A stretch of DNA of 64,000 nt from positions 53,319 to 117,318 of IMG/VR virus record IMGVR_UViG_3300033463_000040. One strand, given 5' to 3'. The DNA comes from a virus. Lineage: Duplodnaviria; Heunggongvirae; Uroviricota; Caudoviricetes. Positions within the stretch are counted from its first letter, which is position 1; the number at the start of each line of letters is the position of its first letter. Both the position numbers and the translations under genes were made by a program. Of this stretch, positions 2,049 to 20,569 are shown piece after piece. The notes beneath the pieces were generated by a model, which saw nothing but the letters and a program-made list of their open reading frames with translations, searched no databases and had not been told where the DNA came from.

Positions 2049-2125
2049 TTGTTTTTACTCCTTGTATATATACTTTATTAAGAACTGTTATTTTTTATAA
2101 TTTAGTAATTTATTTTTCCAATTTA

Positions 2126-3544
2126 TTAAGCTATCGAATCAATTGTTGTAATAGCCGTTGTACATGTAGAATCACTATATATCGTGGCACCAACAATAGG
2201 ATCTGCTGTACTAGAGGTATAATACGGTGTCCAATCTATCGTTGTTCCAACATCTTGAACTCGCCAAGCCAATGCTGTTGCTGTATCATATTTTGGATTT
2301 CTTTCATAATTTGTTTCATTTACACCCGTTAATATTAAAACTGATGGTAAATCAAATAAAACAGTTGTATTAGTACCACCAAAACCATCTGTTACGCTAG
2401 CCCAAGAACCAAAATCCGCTTGTTTATTTAATGGGAAATGTACAGTACAATTAGTTACTCCTGATAATAACTTATTAAAACGGCCACTATCACCAATGGT
2501 TAAAGCAGGAAATGCTAACTGTGTAAGACTTGTATTTGTAAAGCCATTTTCCAAAGAATAGCTACCGCCCACTTTTTTTAAACTAGAAAAATCTACTTGG
2601 CTCAAAGAAGTACAACCATAACATACTCTATCTAATGCATCTGTACCATCTATAGATACTAATTTTGATAAATCAAGGCTTGTTAAATTTGTACAATTTT
2701 CAAAACATCCTACATTTGCACTATTATATCCACCCATTACTCTATTACCAGAAACTACAGTTAAATTAGACAAATCAACCGATTGAATAGGTGTAGCAGC
2801 AAAACCACACTGTAAACTATCTTCCCCATAAAGCTCCCGTAAAGAATGCATATCTACTGTAGTTAATGCATCACAACCAAAAAATGCTCTATATAAACCC
2901 TGTTTACCTGATATTTTTGTTAAGTTAGGAAAAGATATCGTAGAAAGTTTTTTACAATTAGTAAAGCATTGATACATTCCACAACTAGAAATAACATTTG
3001 TTAAAGATGAAAAATCCACCTCTGTTAAATTTATACAATTATAAAAGCACTGATCTAAAGCATTATTTCCTGTTATTTCTGTTAGATTTGGCCATTTTAC
3101 TTTAGTAATACTACTATTATTAAAACCATTATGTAATGAATCAGAATATGTAAGAGAAGTTAAACTCGGCCAATTTATTTCAGTTATACTATTATTATCT
3201 TTATACGTAGTCTCTAAAATTTTTGTATAAATATCTTTTACACCATTCATATTTACTATTTGACTATTATTTCTTCGTAATACTCCAGAAATATCTACTT
3301 GTAGTTCAAAATAATATTCGGGAGCAACTTCAGCTGTACCAGTAATTCCTAATATATTAACACCTTCTTTAATATTTTCGGGTTGTATATTTGAATCAAT
3401 ATTAGCAGTTACTGCATTTACTTTTACCGGACCATAACCATCAATGCCGGTTTCTACATTTATTGTTTGTATAGAAGTAGTAGGAGTTACTGTTAATTCT
3501 TCTATTTTAGGTGTTAATTTAATCATACTTGGACTTATGCTCAT
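2126..3544 (-). CDS. BspA-type leucine-rich-repeat tail fibre / receptor-binding protein
   Basis: Repeated ~22-aa units (F..C..L..I.FP.L..I....F); N-terminus MSISPSMIKLTPKIEEL shared with 3570-5135; C-terminal TTVLFDL motif shared with paralogues. Confidence 0.6.
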   Translation of the reverse strand: MSISPSMIKLTPKIEELTVTPTTSIQTINVETGIDGYGPVKVNAVTANIDSNIQPENIKEGVNILGITGTAEVAPEYYFELQVDISGVLRRNNSQIVNMNGVKDIYTKILETTYKDNNSITEINWPSLTSLTYSDSLHNGFNNSSITKVKWPNLTEITGNNALDQCFYNCINLTEVDFSSLTNVISSCGMYQCFTNCKKLSTISFPNLTKISGKQGLYRAFFGCDALTTVDMHSLRELYGEDSLQCGFAATPIQSVDLSNLTVVSGNRVMGGYNSANVGCFENCTNLTSLDLSKLVSIDGTDALDRVCYGCTSLSQVDFSSLKKVGGSYSLENGFTNTSLTQLAFPALTIGDSGRFNKLLSGVTNCTVHFPLNKQADFGSWASVTDGFGGTNTTVLFDLPSVLILTGVNETNYERNPKYDTATALAWRVQDVGTTIDWTPYYTSSTADPIVGATIYSDSTCTTAITTIDSIA

Positions 3545-3569
3545 TCTTTACTCCTCTAAAAGTTTTTAA

Positions 3570-5135
3570 TTATAAATCAAATAAAACTGTAGTACCACTT
3601 CCATAAAAACCACTTACTACATCTGACCAATATCCTATAGTACTTTGTAAAGCTGCTGGGAAATGAACTGTTACATTGGAACATCCGTTTAACATTTGAT
3701 TAAATGTATCAGAATATCCTACAGAAGTTAAAGCTGGAAATGACAATGTTCTTAGGCTAGAACATGCTTGACACATTATACAACATGCTCTAGATCCTTG
3801 AATGGATTGTAATTTTGGAAATTCTAAGCTAGGTAAACTCGTGCATCTATAAAATGCATTTTCCATTGCATAACTTCCACTAATCGTAGTTACATTACTT
3901 AAATCTACAGAAGTTAAGCCAGTACAACTATTTAAAAGACCAAATCTAGCATTTATAGCTGTTACTCCGCTTAAATTTAATGAAGCTAAATTCGTACAAC
4001 TTGCAAAACCATATGAAAATTTATTATCTATATTAGTTAAACCAGATAAATCTACAGAAGTAATACCAGTACACCCATAAAACATTGAGCTTCCTACATA
4101 ATTACCTGTTACATTAGTTAAATTGCTCAAATCTAATGGTCCAGTTAAGCCAGTACATTGATAAAACATACTACTTGCTGCAGAATTACCAGAAATTGTA
4201 GTTAATCCACTTAAATCAAGAGAAGTTAAATTAGTACAACCAGAAAACATACTAGAACCAGCAGATTGCCCAGATAGGGTAGTTAAACTGCTTAGATCCG
4301 CAGTTGTAAGTGCTGTACAATTCTGAAACATTCCATATGCTGCATTATCACCAGATAAAGTAGTTAAAGAATCTAAATTGATACTTGTTAAGCGTTTACA
4401 ACAATTAAACATCTTTTTACAAGCATTGTTTCCAGAAATCTCAGTTAAATTGCGTAAATCTATACCAGTAATATAACTCTCTGCTTCATATCCACCTTCC
4501 CATTCATCTCCTATTTGTGCAGAAAACATATTCTCACAAGCAGATTGTCCAGAAATTAAAGTTAAGCCACTTAAATCAATATTTCCAGAAATACTTGAAT
4601 TTGCAGTATATGCATTATAAAGTACAAAATTACCTATGTTTGTAATTCCTGTCAAATCAATAAAAGTAGTAGGAAGTTGAAGTGTAGTATTAGTTTTTGT
4701 ATATTGTATACTTAAACTAGTTGATCCACCTCCTTCATGCGTACCTGTAACACCTAATATAGTTACATCTTTTTTAATGTTTCCAGGTATAATATTACTA
4801 TCTATACTACTTGTAACTGCATTAACTGTAACCTCAGTAATACCATTTTTACCACTAGTTGGAGTTATAGTTTGTTGACTTGTAGTAGGAGTAACTGTTC
4901 TTGTTTCACCTTTTAATTCTACAGCTGATCCGTTAACCCCAAGTATACTAATTCCTTCTTTAATGTTTTCTGATTGTATGTTATTATCTATTTCAGAAGT
5001 AACTGCAGAAACTTTAACTGGACCATAACCATCAATACCTGTTTCTACTCCGATGGTTTGCATAGAAGTAGTAGGAATAATATTTAATTCTTCGATTTTT
5101 GGAGTTAATTTAATCATAGAAGGGCTTATACTCAT
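3570..5135 (-). CDS. BspA-type LRR tail fibre / receptor-binding protein
   Basis: Same N-terminal domain as 2126-3544; many CT.LT(S/T) LRR units; ends GSGTTVLFDL. Confidence 0.6.
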   Translation of the reverse strand: MSISPSMIKLTPKIEELNIIPTTSMQTIGVETGIDGYGPVKVSAVTSEIDNNIQSENIKEGISILGVNGSAVELKGETRTVTPTTSQQTITPTSGKNGITEVTVNAVTSSIDSNIIPGNIKKDVTILGVTGTHEGGGSTSLSIQYTKTNTTLQLPTTFIDLTGITNIGNFVLYNAYTANSSISGNIDLSGLTLISGQSACENMFSAQIGDEWEGGYEAESYITGIDLRNLTEISGNNACKKMFNCCKRLTSINLDSLTTLSGDNAAYGMFQNCTALTTADLSSLTTLSGQSAGSSMFSGCTNLTSLDLSGLTTISGNSAASSMFYQCTGLTGPLDLSNLTNVTGNYVGSSMFYGCTGITSVDLSGLTNIDNKFSYGFASCTNLASLNLSGVTAINARFGLLNSCTGLTSVDLSNVTTISGSYAMENAFYRCTSLPSLEFPKLQSIQGSRACCIMCQACSSLRTLSFPALTSVGYSDTFNQMLNGCSNVTVHFPAALQSTIGYWSDVVSGFYGSGTTVLFDL

Positions 5136-5164
5136 TTAGTTTTCCTTTATTCTATCATATAAAT

Positions 5165-6979
5165 TTATGCAATAGAATCTATTGTTCCAATTACTGTTGT
5201 GCAAGCAGAATCACTATATACATTGTCTCCAACCGATGGTTGAGTTGTTCCACTAGTGAATGCCCACGTTGGACTAGATTGTAAATACCAACCCATATTT
5301 GAACCTGTATCATGTGTAGCAGCTCTAAATAATGTAACAGCTGTGCTTTGACCTGTTGGCATGTATTTGATTACTGGAACTGCTGGTAAATCGAATAGTA
5401 CTACAGTATTTGTTCCACTAAATGTCCAACCACTTATTTGTGTTTCAAGGTTACTTGGGAAGTGGATTGTGCAACCTGTTACAGAACTTACCAAATAAGT
5501 AAACGGATTTGAAGCTGGTAATCCTTCTGGATGTAATGCTGGAAATGAAATAGTTGTTAAATTTGGTGAACTAGAAAAACAGAATGAAAAGCATGAACTT
5601 CCTGATGCAATACATAAATTTGTAAACTCAATACTTGTTGCACCACATCTGCTAAATGCACTTGAAAAAGCATAAGACCCAGTTACAGCTAATAATTTTC
5701 CAATACCATAATTTGTTAAGCCAGTGCAATTCTGGAATGTATAATAAAACATGTTATTCTGTGTAACAATCTCTAAATTACTCAATCCCGTGTCTGTCAA
5801 GCTTGTGCAACCATCAAATGTATATTCAAAAGGTCGCAAACTACTCTGGCTTGGATTGAAAGTAAATGTAACTTGTGAAAAATCTATACCAGTAGAAGTC
5901 AAACTCGTACAACCTTGGAAAGTATAATAAAGAGCTTCCAGATAATGAAATTTTTTACAATTTCCCAATTCGGTAGAAGTCAAGCTTGTGCAATCCTTAA
6001 ATGCATAATCTAATCCATGTATAGCCGTTTGTTCTACCAAATTTCCAAGACCTGTTCTTGTTAAAGATGTGCAACCTTCAAAAGCATGAGCTAATCCATA
6101 AGTACCATTATAAGATGTTCCTCCGCTTAGTTTCTTTAAATTATCTAGCCCAGTGCTTGTTAAAGATGTGCAATCTCTAAACGCACTTACAAGCATAGAT
6201 GCATCAGAATTATTACTTGTTCCAAGATATATTTCTGTATCGGGAGCAAAATCTATACCTGTAGAAGTCAAGCTTGTACATCCCATGAACGTAGAGCTTA
6301 GTCTTTTTAAGAATGAATAAGTAGAAACACTACGATTTAATCCGGTGCTTGTTAAAGATGTGCAACTTTTGAACATACTTGAAAAACTAGAAGGTAAGTT
6401 GATAATTCCAGCCCAGTTTATACCCGTAGAAGTTAAACTTGTGCAACCTTCAAACCAACTACTTGGGTATATAGAAGAATAACTACTACCCGGTATAAGT
6501 ACAAAATCTGTTAAATTTCCCAATTCTGTATCAGTCAAACTTGTGCACCCCTTAAATAAATTACTTAGAAGAGAAGAACTACCAGTTACTGTAGTTAAGC
6601 TTCCAAGACCTGTTCTTGTTAAAGATGTGCAATCTTGAAAACCATTAGATAATAAAGAAGAACCAATAGTTATAGTTTCTACATTATCTAACCCAGTAGA
6701 TGTTAAATTTGTGCACCCAGTAAATGCACAATATAATATTGAGTCATTTGTTACATTTATATCTGTCAAATTTTGTGCGTTTACAAATGCTGTTCCAGAA
6801 AAATCTGTGTCATTGTAATGAATTCGATAGCCAAAATATGGAACATCAATATTAGTAGCTCCACCAATATCAATTCCGGTAGAACCAAGTTTAAGTGCAC
6901 CAGTCTGAGAGTCTCTACTATATGGAATGTTTGGTCCTGTAGAACTGCTTCCACCACTAACTGTCTGATTTATAATCAC
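5165..6979 (-). CDS. BspA-type LRR tail fibre / receptor-binding protein
   Basis: More than 15 GCTSLTSTG(L/I) repeats; N-terminus MIINQTVSGGSS shared with 6991-7632. Confidence 0.6.
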   Translation of the reverse strand: MIINQTVSGGSSSTGPNIPYSRDSQTGALKLGSTGIDIGGATNIDVPYFGYRIHYNDTDFSGTAFVNAQNLTDINVTNDSILYCAFTGCTNLTSTGLDNVETITIGSSLLSNGFQDCTSLTRTGLGSLTTVTGSSSLLSNLFKGCTSLTDTELGNLTDFVLIPGSSYSSIYPSSWFEGCTSLTSTGINWAGIINLPSSFSSMFKSCTSLTSTGLNRSVSTYSFLKRLSSTFMGCTSLTSTGIDFAPDTEIYLGTSNNSDASMLVSAFRDCTSLTSTGLDNLKKLSGGTSYNGTYGLAHAFEGCTSLTRTGLGNLVEQTAIHGLDYAFKDCTSLTSTELGNCKKFHYLEALYYTFQGCTSLTSTGIDFSQVTFTFNPSQSSLRPFEYTFDGCTSLTDTGLSNLEIVTQNNMFYYTFQNCTGLTNYGIGKLLAVTGSYAFSSAFSRCGATSIEFTNLCIASGSSCFSFCFSSSPNLTTISFPALHPEGLPASNPFTYLVSSVTGCTIHFPSNLETQISGWTFSGTNTVVLFDLPAVPVIKYMPTGQSTAVTLFRAATHDTGSNMGWYLQSSPTWAFTSGTTQPSVGDNVYSDSACTTVIGTIDSIA

Positions 6980-6990
6980 AGTGTTACTCC

Positions 6991-7632
6991 TTAAATTGCG
7001 TTTGGTATTTCTAGAATTGGTGCAGCAATAGCATTATCTGTTTTATTAGTTCCACGCATATAACCAGCATTCCACCACCAAGCATAGCTGCTCATATCAC
7101 CTTCTGGATACTGTGAAGACGACCAAAATTTTCTATCAACAGAAGATGTTGATATTGTAACAGAAGCATATGAACTACTAGTTGGGTCTAAGTTATTCAA
7201 ACGTGTTCCATCTATTGCACACAAAATTCCCCATTGTTTAATAGTTGGTAACTGTCCATAATAAGTTACCCCACCAATAACAAACGATTTGCTACGACAA
7301 TGATTTACAGCAGTTGATGTTCCAGCAGAAACAATTAAATCACAAGCATTTGTTGCTGTACCAAAATCATAATACATAGAACCTTCATTATTACTAGTAG
7401 TAAAACCAGTTAAACCCGGGATAAATGTTTTGCTACTAAAAAATTTTTTATCAGTTGCACGATGCTGTGCATCTAATAAAACAAGTGCATATTCAATATT
7501 ATTCGCATCATAAAAGAAACCAGCAACAGTTCCAATCTCATTATTATTATCATCAACAACACGGTCTAATAACTGATATTTTTTGGTAGGGGCAGGGGAT
7601 GAACCCCCACTAACAGTTTGGTTTATAATCAT
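6991..7632 (-). CDS. tail fibre protein (shares N-terminal anchor MIINQTVSGGSS with 5165-6979)
   Basis: N-terminal 12 aa identical to the neighbouring LRR protein; different C-terminal domain. Confidence 0.5.
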   Translation of the reverse strand: MIINQTVSGGSSPAPTKKYQLLDRVVDDNNNEIGTVAGFFYDANNIEYALVLLDAQHRATDKKFFSSKTFIPGLTGFTTSNNEGSMYYDFGTATNACDLIVSAGTSTAVNHCRSKSFVIGGVTYYGQLPTIKQWGILCAIDGTRLNNLDPTSSSYASVTISTSSVDRKFWSSSQYPEGDMSSYAWWWNAGYMRGTNKTDNAIAAPILEIPNAI

Positions 7633-7642
7633 AGGGTTACTC

Positions 7643-8761
7643 CTATATTATCAATACATTTACAGTTATAGCACTACTTGGTGTCATTGTGCAAGTGAAT
7701 GTTAATGTTCCAGCACCTTGTGCAGTACAAAGTATGCCAGCACTAGTATAATCTGCTTGACTTGCAGGTGCAGCAGCAACAATCACGTTATTACTTGCAG
7801 TTACACCTGTTACATTTACTGTCTGTGTGTTAGAACTCCAATCATTTACTGCCAATGTCGCAGTAGCAGAAGTTGCACCACCACCACCTCCAGGTGTAGT
7901 CCAAGAACGAGTTGCAGTACCCGAACTAATCGTCAATGTGGGTACATATGTTCCATCTGCTGATGGTGTAGTAGTGAATCTGTCAGTTGGAATCGTGCCA
8001 TTTGCACTCATAATCTCATAGTTACCATAACCATTACCAACCTTAAACGTATCTTCGTCACTGTTTGTATAGCCTAAATTATTATATTTACTACCTAACT
8101 GAATTGCACCACTCGCCGTAATCTTTGCTTGATAACCTATGGCTATACCAGTCCTTGTTGTCTGTGCAGTTTTACCAATAGCAATAGCACCCCAAAAATT
8201 ATTAGCAGCAGATGCACCGTTACCTATTGCAATACCATTATCGTGGGCAACCGAACCTTTACCAACAGCAACTGCCCACTGTCCTGCTTTACTAGATACA
8301 CCAACACTAACACCTTCATATGAACCCTGACTTCCTAAAATACATAAAGCGTCTGTTCCAGTAGCAGTATTTTGTAAAGCATTTATTGTTGCCCAACTAG
8401 CATCCGTACCATCTGTTGTAAGGAATTTGCCACTTTGACCAGTCATATCAGGAAGAGAAGAGCCGGCTGGTTGTACATTTGTTTGTACCCAAGAATATAC
8501 AATTGGACTACCTGCACCTATACATTTATACCAATAACCGCTTGTATAACTTGATGTAGTAGTACCAATATATTGGACTAATCTACCTTCATTAGATGCA
8601 TTAGCTGTTGGCATAGTACTTACTTGTACTTCATAACTATCATCATCTGTAATAATATATAATTGCTCATCACTTTTTTGTGGTAAAGAGTCATATTGTT
8701 GTTTGGTCATTTTATTAATGACCAAATTATCTAATTGAACGTCTGTATAAGTTGCTGTCAT
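7643..8761 (-). CDS. tail fibre protein
   Basis: Motif PDMTGQSGKFLTTDGTDASW; Gly/Ala-rich IAIG repeat region; N-terminal domain homologous to 11869-13929 and 11508-11852. Confidence 0.6.
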   Translation of the reverse strand: MTATYTDVQLDNLVINKMTKQQYDSLPQKSDEQLYIITDDDSYEVQVSTMPTANASNEGRLVQYIGTTTSSYTSGYWYKCIGAGSPIVYSWVQTNVQPAGSSLPDMTGQSGKFLTTDGTDASWATINALQNTATGTDALCILGSQGSYEGVSVGVSSKAGQWAVAVGKGSVAHDNGIAIGNGASAANNFWGAIAIGKTAQTTRTGIAIGYQAKITASGAIQLGSKYNNLGYTNSDEDTFKVGNGYGNYEIMSANGTIPTDRFTTTPSADGTYVPTLTISSGTATRSWTTPGGGGGATSATATLAVNDWSSNTQTVNVTGVTASNNVIVAAAPASQADYTSAGILCTAQGAGTLTFTCTMTPSSAITVNVLII

Positions 8762-8823
8762 ATTCCTATTCCTTACTTTTCTTTATGTATTAGAACTTGT
8801 TTTTTCCTTATTTAAACGGTAGC

Positions 8824-10110: not shown

Positions 10111-10126
10111 AATTTATACTCCCTTA

Positions 10127-11317: not shown

Positions 11318-11507
11318 ATCTATTACTCCTATATCTTTATTTTAAAATTTTTATTATTTCAAACTGAGCCTATTACTACTCAATTTTGTACTATACGAGA
11401 TGCTACACCAGCAGGTATAGTGAGTACTTTAATAATAGTTGCTAGAGAAACTCTTTTTGTACCATGTGCTAAATAGCTAAGCATATTTTATTTCCTAAAT
11501 ATATATG

Positions 11508-11852
11508 CTATTGTTGATCTGACCATGTTCTTAAAGTAACTTTAGATCTATTTGTTACATCACTCCAAGATGCATTAGTACCATCTGTTACTAAGAATTT
11601 ACCTGCTTGACCTGTTTGACTTGGTAATGGAGATCCACCAGATGCAGGTTGTACATCTAGTTGTGTCCAAGAATATGTAGGTGTAGGATCACCATCTGAA
11701 ACACATTCATAGAAGTATCCATTTGTATAAGTACTAGTAGTAGTACCTACGAATTGTACTACTCTACCTAAATTATCAGCATTTGCCGTAGGCATTGTAG
11801 TAACTTGTATATCTTGTGTATATGCTGTTACATAACTATTTATAAGTGTCAT
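11508..11852 (-). CDS. truncated paralogue of the tail fibre N-terminal domain
   Basis: Aligns to residues ~45-150 of 7643-8761 (TMPTANA.N.GR.VQ..GTTTS.YT.GY.Y.C ... GKFL.TDGT.ASW), then ends. Confidence 0.45.
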   Translation of the reverse strand: MTLINSYVTAYTQDIQVTTMPTANADNLGRVVQFVGTTTSTYTNGYFYECVSDGDPTPTYSWTQLDVQPASGGSPLPSQTGQAGKFLVTDGTNASWSDVTNRSKVTLRTWSDQQ

Positions 11853-11868
11853 ATTTGTATACTCCTAT

Positions 11869-13929: not shown

Positions 13930-13992
13930 TTTCTACTTTCCTTCACTTTATTATTCTATAGTTAGAACTTGTTTTATTTTGTTTAATTTTCT

Positions 13993-16422
13993 TTAATAAC
14001 CTTGGACTTTTATTTCTTTTACATAGAAAGAATTTGTCCATTTAGTAGTACTACTATCTTGGCTAAATCCTATCTGTATATAATATGGACCACTACCTAA
14101 AAGTGATTCAATTTGACTTCTAGTAGCTGTTGCACTCCATTCTTGAATATTACAACCATTATGATTATCTGTATCTTTCATAAGTAATATACCTAAAGAA
14201 TCTTTCCAATATTTAACATTTGTACCATTTGCATTACCAGTGGTTGCTGGTATAGTACTTATTGTATTTCTTAAAGCAATATATCCAAAATCATAATTCT
14301 TTTCACTATCTGCATTAGCATATATAGTGAATATAAAATTATCTATATTATTTGGCATAGTAAATTCTATACCTTTAGCAGTTTCCCAGGCTTTTGCATA
14401 ACTGTCTTGATGTATTCTTATTACATCTTCATATTCACTCGTTGTATAATCTTGAAGATTTTCTATAGACCATTTATCACCTTCTGCAATTGCTGGAGTT
14501 AATAAATTAGAATCTGCAGCAGTAATAGTCATAATAGTTTCAACAGGTTGGAATGCAATATCGATTAATTCACCTGTAACAGGTGCTGGAATTATAGAAT
14601 AACTTTGTGGTAAATATCCCGCAGTAGATGTAGTAAAATCTCCTTCAACTAAGAAAGAATTTGGTGTAAAATATCCAAATGCACCACTAGTACTTTCTGT
14701 TATATCATATACATTTCCACATATAAGTGTCGTACCAGCTGTATTATAAACATTAAATAAAATTGAATTAACAAGCTGATTTGCTTGCCAATTTACAGTA
14801 ACTAAATTAGGATCTTGATCTGGAACACGTAAATCAAATTCCATATCAGAATTATCATTATTTACTGTTTTTATACATACTACTCCAGGTGTTGTAACTA
14901 TTGTACGTTTATTATATACATATATATTATCATCTTCGCCTAAATAAACAATAGATTGATAAAATTTATAACAAGACCGTTCAGAATCCCATTCTGATTG
15001 AAAATTATTAGAATAATTTTTACCTTTATATATAAAACCTATTCCATCTTGTGCAGGTTCATATGTATAAATTACTACATTAAAGGTAGGTAATGCAGGT
15101 TGATCAAATATTGCATTTATATTTTCACCTCCAGCTGCAGCAATAGCATCTAATATATCTTGATTATTAGCTAAGCTAGATGAAAAATGAACGTTTACAT
15201 TACCACAATTATAAAAAGCTTGATCTAAAAAGTTTATATTGAAATCACTTAATTTTGGAAAATATACATCTCTTAGAGATGTACAATTACCAAAAGCAAA
15301 ACGTAATCCATATGATTCTACTATATCAAGCATATTAAAATATATAGCTGGAGTATTACTACATCCATAAAAACCTAGATTTAATCCATTCTTACCAATT
15401 CTTTTTAATGAAGTAAATTCAAGAGGTCCCCATCTATCATATCCTTCATCATCATAATGTTTTAAACTAGTACAGTTTTTAAATATTCCAACTGCACCTA
15501 GCTCTTCAATATATTGTATATATTCTAAATCAATCGTCTCTAAAGAATAACAATTTTCAAATATACCATTAGTAGTTCCTGTCACGCTTGTCGGTGCAGT
15601 ACCACTAGTGTGATTGTCATATAATGTAAGATTATCCGCTTCTGATCCAAAATCAACGTGATTTAAGTTTGAACAACCTTTAAACATACCATAACAATTT
15701 TCAATATAACTTATATTATCTAAAGTTACACTAGTTAATTCTGGACAACTCATAAACATATTATATGCATTTTGTATATATTCTAAATGCTCAAAATTTA
15801 CTGTTTGTAAATTATAACAATAACTAAATGCATTTGCTGCGACTTGCGCTCCTGTTGATATTCGTTTTAATTTAGGCATAGATAATTCATAAATATCTCT
15901 GGTATATTGAAAAGCTTGAGATATTGCATAAGCACCTGTAATTTCTTGTAAATTATCAAAGCGTAGTCTTACAGGTACTCCTGAAGTATTATTATGAAAA
16001 TACTGAAAAGCTCCTTCTAATGGCCCATAATTAGTAGTTCCTGTATTTGCTATAGTAACTACATTTGAAAAATCAATATCTGAAATATTATAACAACCAG
16101 GTGTACTAGAATTGCTTCTAAATGCATAAGTTAAACATTTATCCCCGGTAATACTTGTTAAAGAAGATAAATTAATTTTCCTAATACTAGGATCAGTTAT
16201 CTTATCATATACACTATAAAATACTTCTGTACCTAAATCAGTAACACCTGTCATATCAAAATCTGGCCAAATAGATGAAGCTAGCTCTTCATATGAAGGA
16301 CCTACTACTAAAACGCCATTTTCATCTGCATGATATACCTGTTTTGTACCACTTATATGTGTAGGTACATTAAGATTTTTAATTAAAGTCTGTACAGAAT
16401 CATCATTTATTAATTTAGCCAT
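13993..16422 (-). CDS. large BspA-type LRR protein (tail fibre / RBP)
   Basis: N-terminus MAKLI shared with 16424-19000; LRR units with CxxLxxI pattern. Confidence 0.55.
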   Translation of the reverse strand: MAKLINDDSVQTLIKNLNVPTHISGTKQVYHADENGVLVVGPSYEELASSIWPDFDMTGVTDLGTEVFYSVYDKITDPSIRKINLSSLTSITGDKCLTYAFRSNSSTPGCYNISDIDFSNVVTIANTGTTNYGPLEGAFQYFHNNTSGVPVRLRFDNLQEITGAYAISQAFQYTRDIYELSMPKLKRISTGAQVAANAFSYCYNLQTVNFEHLEYIQNAYNMFMSCPELTSVTLDNISYIENCYGMFKGCSNLNHVDFGSEADNLTLYDNHTSGTAPTSVTGTTNGIFENCYSLETIDLEYIQYIEELGAVGIFKNCTSLKHYDDEGYDRWGPLEFTSLKRIGKNGLNLGFYGCSNTPAIYFNMLDIVESYGLRFAFGNCTSLRDVYFPKLSDFNINFLDQAFYNCGNVNVHFSSSLANNQDILDAIAAAGGENINAIFDQPALPTFNVVIYTYEPAQDGIGFIYKGKNYSNNFQSEWDSERSCYKFYQSIVYLGEDDNIYVYNKRTIVTTPGVVCIKTVNNDNSDMEFDLRVPDQDPNLVTVNWQANQLVNSILFNVYNTAGTTLICGNVYDITESTSGAFGYFTPNSFLVEGDFTTSTAGYLPQSYSIIPAPVTGELIDIAFQPVETIMTITAADSNLLTPAIAEGDKWSIENLQDYTTSEYEDVIRIHQDSYAKAWETAKGIEFTMPNNIDNFIFTIYANADSEKNYDFGYIALRNTISTIPATTGNANGTNVKYWKDSLGILLMKDTDNHNGCNIQEWSATATRSQIESLLGSGPYYIQIGFSQDSSTTKWTNSFYVKEIKVQGY

Positions 16423-16423
16423 C

Positions 16424-19000
16424 TTAATCTTCCCTTATTAAAATATTTTTTATATAAAGTTGTATCGACGCTGGATCTTGTACATTAGAAGCATTACATT
16501 GACCAATTTGTAGCCATAATGGATCACCCTCTACCCAACCTTGTAATAATAAAGCTTCTTTAGTTATACAAAATGAATGTGACATGCCTACATACTTTCC
16601 TTCACCCGGAACATCAGGAGACCATATTTCCCCATTACTAACAGTACCAGCAAATTGAGAATCTAAAATTGCAGTCGAATGATAGAATAAATTTGACCAC
16701 TGTAATTGAACAACTTCATTGTATGTATAATTTCTATTAGGTTCTTTTACTAAACCCATATAAACTAAAGCATCATCTAATTCTGGATAATGTTCAAATC
16801 TACTATCAATGTCTATTTGTAATTTTGTACCATGTTTAAATAAATTATCAGAAATACAATTAGACAAATTTACTGATCTAAAACTCGAATTTATACTTCC
16901 ATCAGTACAACAGAATTTAGCTAACATTACAGGCGTGCTAGCCCCTTCAATTCTTTCTGCAAGTGACCACCATTCGCCTGCTTCGCTAGGTGAAAATGTT
17001 GTAACTACTATAAAATCATTAGCGGTCCAATCTGAATGAATTGTATATTCAGGAAAATTAAGTAAAAGAGGTTGAGGAGTTTTAACACTATATGCGTATG
17101 GATAAGACTCTAAATACTCATAGTTATACGTATCTCTTGGACTCAAATTATAATATATATATAAATCAGAATCATTTGTTGTATGACCAACATAAAATGT
17201 ACGATAATTATTAGTAGCAGGATGACCATCATATGCTATTATTCTATCAGTACCTAAGTTAGGCCCAACCATAAATCCACCTTGACCATGTACAATATCT
17301 TCATTGCCTACTTCAATACTTATACATTTTAAATCAAAAGGTCTTGTTGCCGCACGTAAATCTACTTCTATATTATTTTCCCAAGGAGTACCTTTTTCAT
17401 GAGGTAATTTTATAGTAATAAAAGCTTCTTCTAATCTATACATACTATAATTTGTTTTATCAGTTTTATGTATATATAATTCTGTTTGCTCAGTTAACTT
17501 ATCCTTAAATATTTCAATTGTACTTACTCCACAACCTAAATTATCATCATATACGATATCAACATTACTTGATTCTTCATAAAAATCAGTTTCTCTATTA
17601 TATATAATAGTCTTACAAAATGTATTTGTAGTAGTATAACTTCTTTTAACAAAATCTGCTAAAATTGTAACCTTTACTTTTTCTAATTCAGGTAAATCAA
17701 ATAAAAGTGAAGTATTTGTTCCACTTACCCTAGCTAATAAATTTTCAATAAACCAATCTCCATATTTATTTATAAGTAGTGGATATAAATCTTTAGAAAA
17801 ATGTATTTTTACATCTGTACAATCTTCAACTAAACCTTCAACAGCAGGAGCATCTATATCACCTAATTTAGGAAAATATATATCTGTTAAACTTGTACAT
17901 CCTCTAAATGCTAAATATAATGCTTGATTATCCTTTAATAACATCAAACTATCAAAACTTATAGAAGTTAAAGATGTACAATATTGAAATATTTCCCAAC
18001 CACCTGCCGGTCCAATTTCTTTAAGGTTAGCTAAACTAACATGCTGTAAATTAGAGCATTGTTTAAACGCACAACAAGCTCCTCTTTCATCTATTTTTAT
18101 TACGCTATCTAAATTAATAGAGGTTAAACCTGTACAATTATAAAATAAGCCATTTGTTGCATTAATACCCTCATGACTAGGTCCTAAAATCAAATCTGAA
18201 GTACCAAGAACAACTTCGGTTAAATTTGCGCAGTTTTTAAACATATCATTAGAATTTTCTATTTGCTTTAAAGCTGGCATATATATTTTTTGAATTCCAG
18301 AAGCATTTCCTCCACCAAAGAGACCCGTAGTACCTTCAATTCTTTTTAAGCTTTCAAATCTAGCTTCTATTAAATCTTTTGTGTTACTAAACATATAATA
18401 TGCTGCATTGCCTGTTCCGTCTGTTGTTATTTCTTTTAATTTAGGAAAATCCACATAATATAAATCCTTACATCCATAAAAAGTATACCAACAAGTATAT
18501 TTACCTTTTATTTTTTCTAAGGAATTAAAGTTTATAGTTATTGGTTTTCCATAAGTAGTCGTACGTAACTGATAAAAAGTATAATTTAAAGTACCATTCG
18601 CATTACCAGTAGCCCCTTCTACATTTATTTCTTTTAAATTTGAAAAATCAATTTCAGTTACATTTGGATATTGACCTGTATAAAATGCATCATATAAAAC
18701 ATTTTTATTAGTAAGACTAGTCAAAGAAGAAAAATCTATCTTTGTAAGAGCATCTCGCTGATTCGCTGTCCAATTTTTTGCCGCATCTTTAAATACACCT
18801 TCACCTAAATTGGTAACTCCTTCCATATCACCAGGTTTGGGCCAAATAGATAAAAGTTCTTCTGTTGAAGTAGTTCTTTTACACAACTTACCTTCTACTA
18901 CTTCATAGTTTGAAGAGATTTCACTAAAAGGCAAAGGAACTTTTTGCTCTAAAATTTTAGCTGGGATTGGATTAGACTCACCGATTATAAGTTTAGCCAT
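16424..19000 (-). CDS. large BspA-type LRR protein (tail fibre / RBP)
   Basis: N-terminal LRR half with an internal SLLFDLPELEKV junction, then a distinct C-terminal domain. Confidence 0.55.
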   Translation of the reverse strand: MAKLIIGESNPIPAKILEQKVPLPFSEISSNYEVVEGKLCKRTTSTEELLSIWPKPGDMEGVTNLGEGVFKDAAKNWTANQRDALTKIDFSSLTSLTNKNVLYDAFYTGQYPNVTEIDFSNLKEINVEGATGNANGTLNYTFYQLRTTTYGKPITINFNSLEKIKGKYTCWYTFYGCKDLYYVDFPKLKEITTDGTGNAAYYMFSNTKDLIEARFESLKRIEGTTGLFGGGNASGIQKIYMPALKQIENSNDMFKNCANLTEVVLGTSDLILGPSHEGINATNGLFYNCTGLTSINLDSVIKIDERGACCAFKQCSNLQHVSLANLKEIGPAGGWEIFQYCTSLTSISFDSLMLLKDNQALYLAFRGCTSLTDIYFPKLGDIDAPAVEGLVEDCTDVKIHFSKDLYPLLINKYGDWFIENLLARVSGTNTSLLFDLPELEKVKVTILADFVKRSYTTTNTFCKTIIYNRETDFYEESSNVDIVYDDNLGCGVSTIEIFKDKLTEQTELYIHKTDKTNYSMYRLEEAFITIKLPHEKGTPWENNIEVDLRAATRPFDLKCISIEVGNEDIVHGQGGFMVGPNLGTDRIIAYDGHPATNNYRTFYVGHTTNDSDLYIYYNLSPRDTYNYEYLESYPYAYSVKTPQPLLLNFPEYTIHSDWTANDFIVVTTFSPSEAGEWWSLAERIEGASTPVMLAKFCCTDGSINSSFRSVNLSNCISDNLFKHGTKLQIDIDSRFEHYPELDDALVYMGLVKEPNRNYTYNEVVQLQWSNLFYHSTAILDSQFAGTVSNGEIWSPDVPGEGKYVGMSHSFCITKEALLLQGWVEGDPLWLQIGQCNASNVQDPASIQLYIKNILIRED

Positions 19001-19028
19001 ATTTAATACTCTTTATTTTTGTATTTTA

Positions 19029-20075
19029 TTAATTATTAGGAGTTGTAGTCCATTTTCTAAATACAACTTTATTTGTTAGTTGATTTTGGATATTGCTTGA
19101 AACGCCATCTAAATAATTAATTTCATTAGTTGTTACTGTTACACCATGTAATTTATTAACTTCTGAAGTTGTAGCCGTAACATCACTAATATTTGACAGA
19201 GCTAATCCAGACCAAGAAGCAGCTGTACCGTTAGTTGTTAAAAATTTACCCAATTGACTAGTTTGCGCAGGTAAAGCATCTACTTCTGTCCAACTTGCTG
19301 TAGTACCATCGGTTGTTAAATATTTACCTGATTGACCAGATTGTGAAGGCAAAGCATCAACAGTAGACCATGACATACTACTGCCATTAGTTGTTAAGTA
19401 CTTACCCGATTGACCAGTTTGACTTGGTAATTCAGGTTGAAAGCCAATCCAACCACTTACTGATCCACCTTGATTCCAATATGTATATTGCCATTTATAT
19501 GGAGCACGATTACCGCTTGTCATTTCAAGTAAAATAACTTTATTTGAAGCACTTGAGCCTTTCATGATTTTAACGGTAACTTCTGCATTTACCATCTCTG
19601 CTGGTAAATCATTCCATCTAACTTCACCTAAATACATTTTACCTTCTATAGCAGTAGAATCTCCAGCTACAACATCACAAAAAGCTTTAGTTGTAGTAGC
19701 AGAAGTTGTTGGCCAACTAGAAGGAAAATTTAAATAAGATGCAATTTCTAAATTACCTGAACCTAAAACATTACTACCGTTAATTGTTTTAATATTAGTA
19801 CCAGATACTAATGTTTCTTGAACAACAACATCACCTGTTTGGTTATTAACAGTAGTTACTTGACCTTTTGTATCTGTATCAACCCAAGCTATGGTATCTT
19901 CATCCCATACCCACACAGTATCTGTTGAGCCTAAAATAGCATAATCACCAGATGTGCCAACCGGATGGGCAGTTTCTAAAGCATTTAGATCTACATACCA
20001 ACCTAAATTATGTGGATCAGAACCGCCGCCACCAAATCCATTAAAAATTAAACCTTGACCTAATACTAAACTCAT
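19029..20075 (-). CDS. tail fibre protein with a triple 22-aa repeat
   Basis: Three consecutive LPSQ.GQSGK(Y/F)LTT(N/D)G..ASW(S/T) repeats near the C-terminus. Confidence 0.55.
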   Translation of the reverse strand: MSLVLGQGLIFNGFGGGGSDPHNLGWYVDLNALETAHPVGTSGDYAILGSTDTVWVWDEDTIAWVDTDTKGQVTTVNNQTGDVVVQETLVSGTNIKTINGSNVLGSGNLEIASYLNFPSSWPTTSATTTKAFCDVVAGDSTAIEGKMYLGEVRWNDLPAEMVNAEVTVKIMKGSSASNKVILLEMTSGNRAPYKWQYTYWNQGGSVSGWIGFQPELPSQTGQSGKYLTTNGSSMSWSTVDALPSQSGQSGKYLTTDGTTASWTEVDALPAQTSQLGKFLTTNGTAASWSGLALSNISDVTATTSEVNKLHGVTVTTNEINYLDGVSSNIQNQLTNKVVFRKWTTTPNN

Positions 20076-20096
20076 CGTATTGTCTCCTTCCTATAA

Positions 20097-20455: not shown

Positions 20456-20569
20456 TCCTTATAAATGCAGTTTTCTATTTAAATAAGAATATTGCGTTTC
20501 TATACTACCAATATTACATTAAATAGAACTTTATAAATAATATATGACCGAATTACTTAAATTAATTTT

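What the first reader, a model, noticed from the sequence alone, without database searches (positions are those of the whole stretch)
2126..20075. 18-kb receptor-binding supermodule: seven BspA-type LRR proteins and four fibre proteins built by N-terminal domain swapping and segmental duplication
Seven genes (2126, 3570, 5165, 8824, 10127, 13993, 16424) encode proteins made largely of ~22-23-aa Cys/Leu-rich repeats of the BspA/LRR_5 type (F..C..L..I..P..VT.IG..AF). They come in N-terminally matched pairs: MSISPSMIKLTPKIEEL x2, MGK(V/L)M.GTSAIAP x2, MAKLI x2, and MIINQTVSGGSS shared between an LRR protein and a non-LRR fibre. Most end with the same ...GT.TTVLFDL motif. The unit 'LRR gene, then a ~60-nt intergenic region containing AAAACAAGTTCTAA, then a fibre gene with TMPTANA...GKFLTTDGT' occurs twice (13993-11869 and 10110-7643). 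A truncated third copy of the fibre N-terminal domain lies at 11508-11852. This looks like an expanding host-range cassette system, with a large repertoire of LRR adhesin-like receptor-binding proteins sharing anchoring domains.
Basis: seen in the sequence. Interest (0 to 1): 0.7.

Follow-up and report, generated by a model that had tools for sequence, protein, structure and literature searches.

The report
Jumbo-phage tail-fibre array with LRR tips
An 18-kb block of a ~230-kb uncultured phage, probably from a ruminant gut, encodes three tail-fibre stems, a small adaptor, one lectin-like protein and seven leucine-rich-repeat proteins. They look like plug-in host-recognition tips, a class of phage receptor-binding protein for which I found no functional description.

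Summary
Twelve same-strand genes lie at 2126-20075. Seven pass the Pfam LRR_5 threshold, and an AlphaFold model of one is an LRR solenoid closest to BspA-type crystal structures. The shared N-termini, the ...TTVLFDL end motif and the twice-occurring AAAACAAGTTCTAA are all real.

The interpretation needs revision.
- The paralogues are old (25-38% identity). Their LRR regions are closer to proteins of other phages than to each other; only the N-terminal ~70 residues match within pairs. This is a mosaic, not a recent in-place expansion.
- Read in the direction of transcription, the array is three units of "fibre stem, then tips".
- g11508 belongs to a recurrent class of mini-adaptors and is not a relic.
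- g6991 is an Lcl_C/C-type-lectin-like tip, not a fibre.
- The repeat period is 27 aa (PARCEL/DUF285-like), not 22-23.
- The intergenic motif looks regulatory.

Two junction "codes" recur across unrelated contigs. A fibre ending ...LTFTC..TVNVLII is followed by a gene starting MIINQxVxGG. A fibre or adaptor ending ..VxFRxW/..ITDYT is followed by a gene starting MxKLxLG...V.P (12/18 versus 5/718).

Best reading: a branched, multivalent fibre apparatus with plug-in tips. Virion location and receptor binding are inferred, not shown.

The parts
19029..20075 (-). g19029: fibre stem of unit A (348 aa). It has three tandem LPSQ.GQ.GK(Y/F)LTT(D/N)G...W motifs and ends ..KVVFRKWTTTPNN (type-2 acceptor).
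   Evidence: Residues 19-209 are 61% identical to the N-terminus of a 1247-aa gene that follows a tape-measure-sized gene in the 43-kb contig L009. Residues 256-337 hit annotated tail fiber / minor tail proteins. C-end motif.
16424..19000 (-). g16424: LRR tip (858 aa). N-terminus MAKLIIGESNPIP (type 2), LRR plus cap to residue 436, then a 420-aa C-terminal region of unknown fold.
   Evidence: Pfam LRR_5 E 2.4e-12. Paired with g13993. No PDB sequence match for the C-terminal region.
13993..16422 (-). g13993: LRR tip (809 aa). N-terminus MAKLI..., degenerate cap ending ..NAIFDQ at residue 441, then a 368-aa C-terminal region unrelated to that of g16424.
   Evidence: Pfam LRR_5 E 7.5e-14. 33% identity to g16424 over the first 450 aa only. 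No PDB match for the C-terminal region.
13962..13975 (-). AAAACAAGTTCTAA motif, 34 nt upstream of the g11869 start codon. Candidate promoter or regulatory element opening unit B.
11869..13929 (-). g11869: fibre stem of unit B (686 aa). It has two GK.LTT.G motifs, a YadA/EibD-like head repeat region and a C-terminal domain ending ..LTFSC..LTVNVVILG (type-1 acceptor).
   Evidence: Pfam Phage_fiber_rpt, Phage_tail_C and YadA_head, all below threshold. EibD 2xqh E 0.0023. 38-47% identity to g7643. Junction.
11508..11852 (-). g11508: mini-adaptor (114 aa). N-terminus MTLINSYV (type-1-like), then a TMPTANA...GYFYEC module and a GKFLVTDG motif. C-end ..KVTLRTWSDQQ (type-2 acceptor).
   Evidence: 62% identity to g7643 residues 44-126. 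Intact homologues of 227, 151 and 144 aa occupy the same position in L027 and L036. No decayed fibre remnant in the 190-nt gap downstream.
10127..11317 (-). g10127: LRR tip (396 aa). N-terminus MGKLMMGTSAIAP (type 2); cap ends ..TTVLYDLPVTA.
   Evidence: Pfam LRR_5 E 9.2e-10. N-terminus 45% identical to g8824.
8824..10110 (-). g8824: LRR tip (428 aa). N-terminus MGKVMLGTSAIAP (type 2); cap ends ..TTVLFDL.
   Evidence: AF2 LRR solenoid, pLDDT 85.8, with residues 14-31 below pLDDT 50. Foldseek top hit 4fs7, E 7.7e-10. An identical protein lies on a 231,566-bp contig.
8790..8803 (-). AAAACAAGTTCTAA motif, 30 nt upstream of the g7643 start codon. Candidate promoter or regulatory element opening unit C.
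7643..8761 (-). g7643: fibre stem of unit C (372 aa). It has one GKFLTTDG motif, YadA-like G.A.G repeats and a C-terminal domain ending ..TLTFTCTMTPSSAITVNVLII (type-1 acceptor, about nt 7646-7855).
   Evidence: Window 7604-7903 is 86.7% identical in DNA to L037, where the downstream gene is different.
6991..7632 (-). g6991: lectin-like tip (213 aa). N-terminus MIINQTVSGGSS (type 1).
   Evidence: AF2 pLDDT 89.7, residues 1-11 disordered. Foldseek top hit is the Legionella Lcl C-terminal domain 8q4e, probability 0.99. 23 of 60 family members hit Pfam Lcl_C. Homologues follow the fibre gene in L011 and L012, lie two genes downstream of a 668-aa gene with only a short fibre-like match in L048, and close the structural module of a 44-kb podovirus-like contig.
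5165..6979 (-). g5165: LRR tip (604 aa, GTG start). N-terminus MIINQTVSGGSS (type 1), cap to residue 531, then a 73-aa C-terminal extension shared with g2126.
   Evidence: Pfam LRR_5 E 5.6e-14. Duplicated junction (RBS plus 12 codons). The full-length homologue in L037 directly follows the fibre gene.
3570..5135 (-). g3570: LRR tip (521 aa). N-terminus MSISPSMIKLTPKIEEL, then two copies of a ~55-aa TPTTSQQTI...NIK.GV.ILGV.GT module, then LRR and a cap ending ..TTVLFDL.
   Evidence: Pfam LRR_5 E 5.5e-15 and DUF285 29.7 bits (cut-off 25). NCBIfam TIGR02167 PARCEL repeat 56.9 bits (cut-off 30). N-module homologues.
2126..3544 (-). g2126: LRR tip (472 aa). Same N-terminal module as g3570 (one copy), cap to residue 399, then a 73-aa extension shared with g5165.
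   Evidence: Pfam LRR_5 E 3.8e-13. 79% identity to g3570 over residues 1-71, versus about 38% over the C-terminal 200 aa of LRR plus cap.
20524..20531 (-). AAGTTCTA core motif, 134 nt upstream of g20097, the small gene that precedes g19029. Possible start of unit A.
   Evidence: This is the weakest of the three sites.

Best explanation
The block encodes the distal host-recognition apparatus of an uncultured jumbo phage (source contig 231.6 kb, probably from a ruminant gut). In the direction of transcription it reads as three units.

- **Unit A:** fibre stem g19029, then LRR proteins g16424 and g13993.
- **Unit B:** fibre stem g11869, then mini-adaptor g11508, then LRR proteins g10127 and g8824.
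- **Unit C:** fibre stem g7643, then lectin-like g6991, then LRR proteins g5165, g3570 and g2126.

The stems are probably trimeric fibres, carrying YadA-like repeats and GKFLTTDG motifs. The eight downstream proteins are interchangeable receptor-binding tips: seven BspA/PARCEL-type LRR solenoids with a conserved C-terminal cap, and one Lcl_C/C-type-lectin-like domain.

The tips are proposed to dock through a short N-terminal peptide onto the C-terminal end of the protein encoded just upstream. Two matching pairs recur.
- **Type 1:** the fibre ends ..LTFTC..TVNVLII and the tip starts MIINQxVxGG.
- **Type 2:** the fibre or adaptor ends ..VxFRxW or ..ITDYT and the tip starts MxKLxLG...V.P.

On this reading g11508 converts a type-1 site into a type-2 site. 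The result would be a branched, multivalent fibre set.

The array grew by old duplications and by recombination at the conserved junctions, which swaps tips between phages. It did not grow by recent in-place amplification.

**Shown:** gene content, folds, paralogy pattern, junction co-occurrence, and tail-module context in other phages. **Inferred:** virion location, docking, trimer state, receptor binding and the effect on host range.
For: **Folds.** All seven proteins pass LRR_5. The g8824 model is a BspA-like solenoid. g6991 has an Lcl_C/CTLD-like fold.

**Fibres.** The C-terminal part of g19029 matches annotated tail fiber and minor tail proteins. Its N-terminus matches a 1247-aa gene of L009 that lies downstream of a 1681-aa gene of tape-measure size (my reading from size and position; neither gene is annotated). 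g11869 has an EibD/YadA-like head region.

**Context elsewhere.** LRR-cap genes lie in the tail modules of 29 IMG/VR contigs of 4-195 kb and of several metagenome contigs, next to Collar, gp25, Phage_tail_C, lysozyme or holin genes. L027 and L036 carry the same alternating fibre / mini-fibre / LRR arrays, with at least 6 and at least 5 LRR genes.

**Alternative tips.** The gene after a fibre with the same C-terminal domain is an LRR in L009, L036 and L037, and a lectin-like gene in L012 (L011 also has a lectin-like gene after its fibre).

**Junction codes.** Type 1 is seen in 7 junctions from 5 contigs plus the window. For type 2, 12 of 18 ORFs with the acceptor-like C-end are followed by a type-2 gene, against 5 of 718 without it (Fisher p 2e-18).

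**Docking peptides.** In the AF2 monomer models the g6991 N-terminal peptide (residues 1-11) is below pLDDT 50. In g8824 the first ten residues average pLDDT 72 and residues 14-31 are below 50.

**Mosaic structure.** N-termini match within pairs, but the LRR regions are nearer to proteins of other phages.

**Cytoplasmic assembly.** There is no signal-peptide-like or transmembrane hydrophobic stretch.

**Family size.** The cap defines a compact family: 1,597 representatives among 1.84 billion, with the cap mostly at the extreme C-terminus.
Against: - There is no experimental or proteomic evidence that any phage LRR_5/PARCEL protein is in a virion. I found no paper that characterises one.
- No recognisable baseplate or tail-tube gene adjoins the block in the window. 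It is flanked by a metallophosphoesterase and a tRNA array.
- Fibre assignments rest on weak or partial similarities. The Pfam hits are below threshold and tblastn of g11869 against GenBank phages found nothing.
- Junction co-occurrence could reflect inherited synteny. The regular expressions were written after seeing the data, and the loci are not independent.
- Docking could not be modelled, because only monomer prediction was available.
- g3570 and g2126 fit neither code cleanly.
- The host is unknown.
Confidence: 0.6

Rival explanations
1. The array is an actively expanding host-range cassette system. It was built by recent segmental duplication of a unit of LRR gene, spacer and fibre gene, together with N-terminal domain swapping. 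g11508 is a truncated leftover copy.
For: Paired N-termini, two similar spacers and two similar fibre genes do exist. The RBS plus MIINQTVSGGSS junction is duplicated inside the window.
Against: - Paralogues share only 25-38% identity, and the longest DNA repeat is 231 nt at 76%.
- LRR regions rank 40th-159th among each other's homologues.
- The three independently assembled copies are identical, so no ongoing turnover is visible.
- g11508-like genes are intact and recurrent in other phages, with a conserved C-end.
- The spacer motif recurs upstream of unrelated genes.
Confidence: 0.12
2. The LRR proteins are not virion parts. They are accessory genes, for example bacterial-type adhesins or decoys expressed in or on the infected cell. 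Possible roles are superinfection exclusion, host-surface remodelling or anti-defence. They merely sit among the fibre genes.
For: BspA/PARCEL proteins are best known as cell-surface proteins of bacteria and protists (PMC2843621, PMC2996958). In L003 two LRR-cap genes sit beside ArdA and resolvase genes rather than fibre genes. Single LRR-cap genes also occur in MAG contigs with mixed-strand neighbours.
Against: - There is no signal peptide, lipobox-like N-terminus or transmembrane segment.
- The genes are tightly packed on one strand with the fibre genes.
- In small phages the LRR gene directly follows the fibre gene, as in L009 and L037.
- The LRR gene is interchangeable with a lectin-like gene behind the same conserved junction.
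Confidence: 0.12
3. The proteins are on the virion, but they bind the environment rather than the host receptor. Targets could be mucus, plant fibre or other cells, keeping the phage where hosts are. This would resemble the Ig-like capsid decorations proposed for adherence to mucus.
For: LRR and C-type-lectin-like folds are generic binders of glycans and proteins. The large number of different tips on one phage is unusual for pure host recognition. The samples appear to come from ruminant guts.
Against: The genes lie in the fibre part of the genome, not the head part. The tips follow fibre stems in gene order, and small phages that have one fibre gene followed by a single LRR or lectin-like gene use the same arrangement.
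Confidence: 0.08
4. The conserved junctions are not docking pairs. They only reflect common descent of a fibre-plus-next-gene block, translational coupling, or a recombination linker. The tips attach elsewhere, for example through the conserved C-terminal cap.
For: - The 300-nt stretch at 86.7% DNA identity spans the stop codon, the RBS and the first codons, as a recombination linker would.
- The cap has invariant residues (H, F, P, D) not explained by capping alone.
- LRR genes are in turn regularly followed by genes with the fibre-type N-terminus.
Against: - Upstream proteins of 122-1247 aa with otherwise different content keep the same last 8-25 residues. This holds only when the next gene has the matching N-terminus.
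- Second tips in a unit (g5165, g8824, g13993) keep the N-terminal peptide although they no longer follow a fibre end.
- The g6991 N-terminal peptide is disordered in its monomer model, and residues 14-31 of g8824 are of low confidence.
Confidence: 0.2

Closest known systems
Branched multi-RBP tail systems of cultured phages (CBA120 TSP1-4, G7C gp63.1/gp66, Klebsiella jumbo phage phiKp24 with hyperbranched fibres; PMC9700779 and my own knowledge)
   Same: Many receptor-binding proteins are encoded in one cluster. Conserved N-terminal anchors are combined with exchangeable distal domains. Adaptor proteins create extra attachment sites. The result is a multivalent particle.
   Different: The tips of those phages are mostly beta-helix depolymerase tailspikes, attached through gp10-like or XD-type domains. 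Here the tips are LRR solenoids and one lectin-like domain. The proposed anchors are very short terminal peptides. No gp10-like domain was detected.
Goslar (Chimalliviridae) DUF7941 proteins (bioRxiv 10.64898/2026.04.21.720040)
   Same: It is a jumbo phage with about ten proteins that share an N-terminal module. [quoted passage not shown] Head-to-tail oligomers are predicted to form through a terminal segment.
   Different: The anchoring module (DUF7941) is different and restricted to chimalliviruses. The LRR assignment there comes from prediction only. The genes are dispersed rather than arranged as a fibre/tip array.
BspA-type LRR (Pfam LRR_5) and PARCEL/DUF285/TIGR02167 surface proteins of bacteria and protists (PMC2843621, PMC2996958)
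   Same: The repeat class is the same: LRR_5 is above threshold in all seven, and PARCEL and DUF285 are above threshold in g3570. The solenoid fold matches, Cys/Leu positions are conserved, and surfaces are variable. Horizontal spread is a shared feature.
   Different: The phage proteins lack secretion signals and cell-anchoring domains. They have a 27-aa period and carry a specific C-terminal cap (..VHFP...W...GGT.TTVLFDL) not matched in the PDB. They have phage-type N-terminal peptides and are encoded among fibre genes.
PARCEL/BspA-annotated ORFs of Vibrio jumbo phage vB_VhaM_pir03 (PMC7765460)
   Same: It is a jumbo phage that encodes DUF285/PARCEL-type repeat proteins. The authors noted that the domain had not been described in phages before.
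   Different: In pir03 the ORFs are single and giant (19 kb and 3.7 kb), with no described fibre context or function. tblastn of g8824 against GenBank phages found no match.
Legionella collagen-like adhesin Lcl, C-terminal domain (PDB 8q4e; Pfam PF07603)
   Same: The g6991 model's best structural match is this adhesin domain, followed by weak C-type-lectin-like matches. Family members hit PF07603.
   Different: The match is weak (E 3e-3, TM 0.33/0.52). g6991 itself does not reach the Pfam threshold. It has a phage-type N-terminal peptide in place of a collagen-like stalk.

Membership tests
Pfam LRR_5 (BspA-type leucine-rich repeat) | Profile match above the curated gathering score | tested here: met
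   All seven proteins score 34-56 bits against a cut-off of 27.7.
Pfam LRR_5 (BspA-type leucine-rich repeat) | Curved LRR solenoid fold like the solved BspA-type structures | tested here: met
   g8824 only: AF2 pLDDT 85.8; Foldseek hits 4fs7 (E 7.7e-10), 4h09, 3sb4, 4fdw, 4fd0 and 6mlx.
   Autocorrelation peaks at 27 aa in five proteins and 26 aa in two. DNA repeat spacing is 72-84 nt.
BspA-like cell-surface adhesins | Secretion signal and cell-surface anchoring | tested here: not met
   No hydrophobic N-terminal core (maximum KD(10) 0.5-1.5) and no transmembrane-like stretch. This is a crude hydropathy test only.
PARCEL / DUF285 / TIGR02167 | Profile match above the curated cut-off | tested here: inconclusive
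   g3570 passes: TIGR02167 56.9 bits (cut-off 30) and DUF285 29.7 bits (cut-off 25). g8824 scores 16.3 bits, below cut-off, and g13993 and g16424 have no hit. g2126, g5165 and g10127 were not scanned against NCBIfam, and none of the six other LRR proteins hit DUF285.
PARCEL / DUF285 / TIGR02167 | Period of about 26 residues, with conserved hydrophobic and variable hydrophilic positions | tested here: met
   Period 26-27 aa. The consensus keeps F, C, L, T/S and G positions only.
PARCEL / DUF285 / TIGR02167 | Dyad-symmetric (palindromic) coding DNA | not tested
   Not examined.
Phage tail fibre proteins | Sequence similarity to annotated or characterised tail fibre proteins | tested here: inconclusive
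   - g19029 residues 256-337 hit annotated tail fiber / minor tail proteins at 38-59% over 45-80 aa.
- g11869 and g7643 have only sub-threshold Pfam hits, plus EibD at E 0.0023.
- tblastn of g11869 found nothing.
Phage tail fibre proteins | Encoded in the tail module next to tape-measure, baseplate or lysis genes | tested here: inconclusive
   Met in related loci: L009, L011 and L012 (after a gene of tape-measure size), L025 (Collar, gp25), L006 (lysozyme) and L027 (holin). In the window itself no baseplate gene adjoins the block.
Phage tail fibre proteins | Present in the virion as a trimer | not testable with these tools
   This needs proteomics, cryo-EM or multimer modelling.
Branched multi-RBP systems (CBA120 / G7C / phiKp24 type) | Several RBP genes in one cluster, with conserved N-terminal anchors and variable distal parts | tested here: met
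Branched multi-RBP systems (CBA120 / G7C / phiKp24 type) | gp10-like or XD-type anchor domains and beta-helix depolymerase tailspikes | tested here: not met
   No such Pfam or PHROG hits. The tips are LRR or lectin-like.
Pfam Lcl_C (PF07603), for g6991 | Profile match | tested here: inconclusive
   g6991 itself has no hit at E 0.01. 23 of 60 aligned homologues hit, best E 9.5e-7.
Pfam Lcl_C (PF07603), for g6991 | Fold of the Lcl C-terminal domain (C-type-lectin-like) | tested here: met
   Foldseek top hit 8q4e_A, probability 0.99, E 3e-3, TM 0.52 on the target. It is followed by LOX-1 and CD94 CTLDs at weak scores.
Programmed host-range switching (Mu Gin / P1 Cin-type invertible fibre segments) | Inverted repeats flanking alternative fibre ends on opposite strands | tested here: not met
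   All genes are on one strand. The only inverted repeats are weak: 25-42 nt at 74-81%.
Programmed host-range switching (diversity-generating retroelements) | Reverse transcriptase gene with a template repeat and a variable repeat | not tested
   The repeat scan of 1500-21500 listed no near-identical pair of the kind expected for a template/variable repeat. No search for a reverse transcriptase was made.

The most novel reading that the evidence does not exclude
LRR (BspA/PARCEL-type) solenoids that carry the ..VHFP...TTVLFDL cap are a widespread and so far uncharacterised class of phage receptor-binding tips. About 1,600 clusters at 50% identity exist, and the contig labels that name a source point to ruminant guts. 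The tips, together with lectin-like tips, are mounted on fibres through a small two-letter code of terminal peptides: a type-1 and a type-2 pair of C-end and N-peptide. Mini-adaptors convert one site type into the other. Podo-, sipho- and jumbo-type phages can therefore exchange and stack tips, up to eight on one particle.
Probability: 0.4. Interest if true: 0.78.

Novelty: new variant of a known kind. Interest (0 to 1): 0.62.

Why it matters
- **A new RBP class.** If the LRR proteins are virion tips, they add a new fold class to the known phage receptor-binding proteins. That class appears common in ruminant-gut phages, whose hosts are largely unknown.
- **Annotation.** A recognisable cap motif and two short docking codes would let tail-tip genes be annotated in metagenomic phages. 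Such genes currently carry no function: none of the LRR or lectin-like homologues listed had an informative name.
- **Engineering.** The codes would offer a simple grammar for swapping tips.
- **Evolution.** The finding would link the horizontally mobile PARCEL/BspA repeat family of bacteria and protists to phages as a possible vehicle.

Tried and rejected
- **Megablast of the block against GenBank phages:** no match. tblastn of g8824 and g11869 also found nothing, so no annotated relative could be used.
- **IMG/VR scans with g7643 and the flanking metallophosphoesterase:** no relatives. Close relatives of the whole phage, needed to see cassette turnover, were not found.
- **dN/dS between the window and L001/L002:** abandoned, because all genes are 100% identical. 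The 98-99% figure came from secondary repeat alignments.
- **Exact-DNA scan of IMG/VR for the type-1 junction (GGAGT N5-6 ATGATTATAAAYCA):** 18 loci, of which only 3 are real (L037, L009, L010, already known); the rest are chance. The junction is conserved mainly at protein level.
- **Invertible-segment switching:** rejected.
- **Sigma-70 promoters and intrinsic terminators as unit boundaries:** no enrichment.
- **The 190-nt gap after g11508 as a decayed fibre remnant:** no similarity found.
- **PDB sequence searches:** nothing for the large C-terminal regions of g13993 and g16424 or for the cap.
- **Host assignment:** unresolved. LRR-cap homologues occur in MAGs labelled Gastranaerophilales (4 of 11), Bacilli and others. 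Some of these contigs look like mis-binned phages, for example L058 at 245 kb.
- **Literature searches for phage LRR_5/BspA RBPs:** no functional study found.

Full report
**What is there**

Window positions 2126-20075 carry twelve ORFs, all on the minus strand. Gaps are 1-29 nt, except 62-63 nt before g7643 and g11869 and 190 nt before g10127.

The window belongs to a phage.
- A protein identical to g8824 lies on a 231,566-bp contig, and the same block was assembled in two other data sets.
- All genes in those two copies are 100% identical to the window.
- Elsewhere the window holds a major head protein (PHROG 138), a polynucleotide kinase/RNA ligase fusion and 14 tRNA genes.
- No GenBank phage matches at DNA level.

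**The LRR proteins**

- All seven named genes pass the Pfam LRR_5 gathering score.
- g3570 also passes DUF285 and the NCBIfam PARCEL 26-residue repeat model.
- An AlphaFold model of g8824, built on 60 homologues, has pLDDT 85.8 and pTM 0.84. It is an LRR solenoid whose best PDB matches are the BspA-type structures 4fs7, 4h09, 3sb4, 4fdw and 4fd0 and TpLRR.
- The repeat period is 27 aa (26 in two proteins), not 22-23.
- Every protein has the same C-terminal cap (FPAL...F..ML..CT.VTVHFP...W....GFGGT.TTVLFDL) with invariant H, F, P and D.
- A profile of the cap finds 1,597 cluster representatives among 1.84 billion proteins, with the cap mostly at the extreme C-terminus. It has no sequence match in the PDB.
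- None of the twelve proteins has a signal-peptide-like or transmembrane hydrophobic stretch.

**The non-LRR proteins**

- g19029, g11869 and g7643 look like fibre stems.
  - The N-terminal 190 aa of g19029 are 61% identical to the start of a 1247-aa gene that follows a tape-measure-sized gene in 43-kb contigs.
  - Its C-terminal part matches annotated tail fiber and minor tail proteins.
  - g11869 has a YadA/EibD-like head region.
- The three stems and g11508 share a motif, LPSQ.GQ.GKFLTTDG...W, present seven times in all.
- g6991 is not a fibre. Its model (pLDDT 89.7) best matches the Legionella Lcl C-terminal adhesin domain, then C-type-lectin-like domains. 23 of 60 homologues hit Pfam Lcl_C.

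**Paralogy is old and mosaic**

Overall identities between paralogues are 25-38%. Within the pairs the first ~70 residues match far better than the rest.
- g2126/g3570: 79%
- g8824/g10127: 45%
- g13993/g16424: 41%

Over the last 200 aa (LRR plus cap) the paralogues rank 40th-159th among about 159 homologues of one another. Their best matches come from other contigs. Only g13993/g16424 are mutual near-best. The comparison set was chosen as hits to g8824, which is a caveat.

This pattern fits conserved anchors joined to diverged or exchanged LRR bodies. It does not fit a recently expanding array.

**Re-parsing the array**

In the direction of transcription the order is:
- g19029, g16424, g13993
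- g11869, g11508, g10127, g8824
- g7643, g6991, g5165, g3570, g2126

That gives three units of a stem followed by tips. The AAAACAAGTTCTAA motif sits 30-34 nt upstream of the start codons of g11869 and g7643.

Its core, AAGTTCTA, also lies upstream of g20097 (the gene before g19029) and of another gene at 21695. AGTTCTA is the most enriched 7-mer in upstream non-coding DNA of the window, with 5 occurrences against 0.54 expected. I read it as a regulatory element, with low confidence. No sigma-70-like or terminator signal marks the units.

**Evidence from other phages**

- LRR-cap genes occur in 29 IMG/VR contigs of 4-195 kb and in several metagenome contigs.
- They lie beside fibre-like, Collar, gp25, lysozyme or holin genes.
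- Most loci have one or two such genes. L027 (48 kb) and L036 (93 kb) have at least six and at least five, alternating with full fibres and with mini-fibre genes of 122-227 aa.
- g11508 therefore belongs to a recurrent class and is not a relic.
- g6991 homologues follow the fibre gene in L011 and L012. In L048 the homologue lies two genes downstream of a 668-aa gene with only a short fibre-like match. Another homologue closes the structural module of a 44-kb contig that has a P22-type portal.
- Contig labels point to ruminant guts.

**Two junction codes**

*Type 1.* A fibre ending ..(T)LTFTC..P..(I/L)TVNV(L)I(I) is followed, after an AGGAGT RBS, by a gene starting MIINQ(T/V)V.GG.
- This holds in the window (g7643 to g6991), L037, L009, L012, L036 and twice in L045.
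- The downstream genes differ widely: LRR proteins of 268, 528 and 812 aa, lectin-like proteins of 205 and 213 aa, and others.
- L037 shares 86.7% DNA identity with window 7604-7903 across the fibre end, the RBS and the first codons. The rest of its fibre is 50% identical in protein, and its LRR is 31% identical to g5165.
- The window holds this junction twice (g7643 to g6991, and g6991 to g5165). It looks like the union of the L012-type and L037-type arrangements.

*Type 2.* A fibre or adaptor ending ..(V/I)x(F/I/L)(R/T)(D/E/K/V)(W/Y)(T/S).. is followed by a gene starting M(G/A)KLxLG...V.P. Examples of the C-end are KVVFRKWT in g19029, KVTLRTWS in g11508, and ALVITDYT, VTIRDWT and VTFRVWG elsewhere.
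- Of 18 ORFs with such an end, 12 are followed by such a start, against 5 of 718 without it (Fisher p 2e-18).
- The patterns were written after seeing the data, and the loci are related, so the p-value overstates independence.

g11508 starts with a type-1-like peptide (MTLINSYV) and ends with a type-2 acceptor. It sits between a type-1 fibre (g11869) and two type-2 LRR proteins, as an adaptor would. The N-terminal peptide of g6991 (residues 1-11) is disordered in its monomer model. In the g8824 model the first ten residues average pLDDT 72 and residues 14-31 fall below 50.

**The g2126/g3570 N-terminal module**

After MSISPSMIKLTPKIEEL come one or two copies of a ~55-aa unit (TPTTSQQTI...AVTS.ID.NI...NIK.GV.ILGV.GT). 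This unit has no Pfam family. It is common as one to three copies in small stand-alone proteins of 110-240 aa on phage-sized contigs. In other phages it follows a type-2 peptide.

**Mechanism**

The best-supported model is a branched, multivalent fibre apparatus. Three stems present acceptor ends. Eight tips (seven LRR, one lectin-like) plug in through short N-terminal peptides. An adaptor converts one site type into the other. Recombination at the conserved junctions exchanges tips between phages.

The gene content, folds, mosaic pattern, context and junction statistics are shown. Virion location, docking, oligomeric state and receptor binding are inferred. I put this model at about 0.6.

**Comparison with what is known**

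- In function it resembles the branched multi-RBP systems of CBA120, G7C and phiKp24, and the Goslar DUF7941 proteins. In three of those a shared N-terminal module precedes carbohydrate-binding, hydrolase and/or LRR/beta-helix domains.
- It is not a member of those families. No gp10-like, XD or DUF7941 module and no tailspike beta-helix was found.
- The repeats belong to the LRR_5/PARCEL class, but the proteins lack the secretion and anchoring features of cellular BspA proteins.
- PARCEL/BspA-annotated ORFs have been noted in one jumbo phage without any assigned function.
- I found no study of a phage LRR_5 receptor-binding protein.

**Verdict**

This is a new variant of a known kind of system. 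Interest is moderate to high: the tip class and the docking codes are testable and would help annotate many uncharacterised gut phages.

Noticed in passing
window 21854-26639: There is an array of 14 tRNA genes on the minus strand, in five small groups. An HNH endonuclease gene (24769-25245, PHROG 10822, E 3.6e-20) is inserted between groups.
   Followed up: partly
window 36793-38994 (-): A 733-aa fusion of polynucleotide kinase/phosphatase and RNA ligase (PHROG 8238, E 5.9e-175) is about 35% identical to proteins of SPbeta-like Bacillus phages and Staphylococcus phages. Together with the tRNA array it suggests a tRNA-repair function against anticodon nucleases.
   Followed up: partly
window 55978-57519 (+): The major head protein gene (34% identical to those of Xanthomonas phage phiXF1 and Pseudomonas phage QdP_Psa3) is one of only 8 of 102 ORFs on the plus strand. 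It lies in a local island of higher GC (0.37) and reversed GC skew.
   Followed up: partly
window 41803-42657 (-); L009 19099-19823; L035 7546-8232: A 284-aa gene (PHROG 200 'lipoprotein', E 3e-50) shares 74-78% DNA identity with genes of 43-46-kb rumen-type viral contigs. One of them is L009, which also shares the g19029 fibre N-terminus. This hints at gene exchange between the jumbo phage and small phages, perhaps on a common host.
   Followed up: no
window, upstream non-coding segments of minus-strand genes: Besides AGTTCTA, the 7-mers GCTTTAC and CTTTACT are enriched upstream of genes (7 occurrences against 1.1 expected). They may mark a second class of promoter. The sites were not mapped.
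   Followed up: no
window 11318-11507: This 190-nt gap between g11508 and g10127 is the longest gap in the block. It holds a 34-aa ORF that gene callers report in L001 and L002. It has no similarity to fibre or LRR genes.
   Followed up: partly
window 4734-5084 (g3570 residues 18-134) and 3332-3493 (g2126 residues 18-71): A ~55-aa repeat module (TPTTSQQTI..G.DG...V.VNAVTS.ID.NI...NIK.GV.ILGV.GT) has no Pfam family. It is widespread as small stand-alone proteins of 110-240 aa with one to three copies, on contigs up to 420 kb.
   Followed up: partly
window 8393-8456, 11565-11628, 12139-12202, 12667-12730, 19212-19431: There are seven copies of the fibre motif LPSQ.GQ.GKFLTTDG...W across g7643, g11508, g11869 and g19029. 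This equals the number of LRR proteins. The counts do not match unit by unit, so the equality may be a coincidence.
   Followed up: no
window 2129-2347 and 5168-5386 (C-terminal extensions of g2126 and g5165): A shared ~73-aa domain follows the cap and ends ..YSDS.CTT.I.TIDSIA. It is also present in LRR proteins of L036 and L037. Its function is unknown. In L036 the next gene after it has a fibre-type N-terminus.
   Followed up: no
L058 (JAFZWP010000001.1, 245-kb contig binned as 'Bacilli bacterium', water-buffalo rumen): The region around the LRR-cap gene consists of large fibre-like genes carrying the GKFLTTDG motif. This contig is probably another jumbo phage placed wrongly in a bacterial bin.
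   Followed up: partly
window 1770-2048 (-) and L047 11382-11606: A 92-aa very acidic protein lies just downstream of the block. It shares 73% DNA identity with a gene next to the LRR gene of viral contig L047, so it may belong to the module.
   Followed up: no
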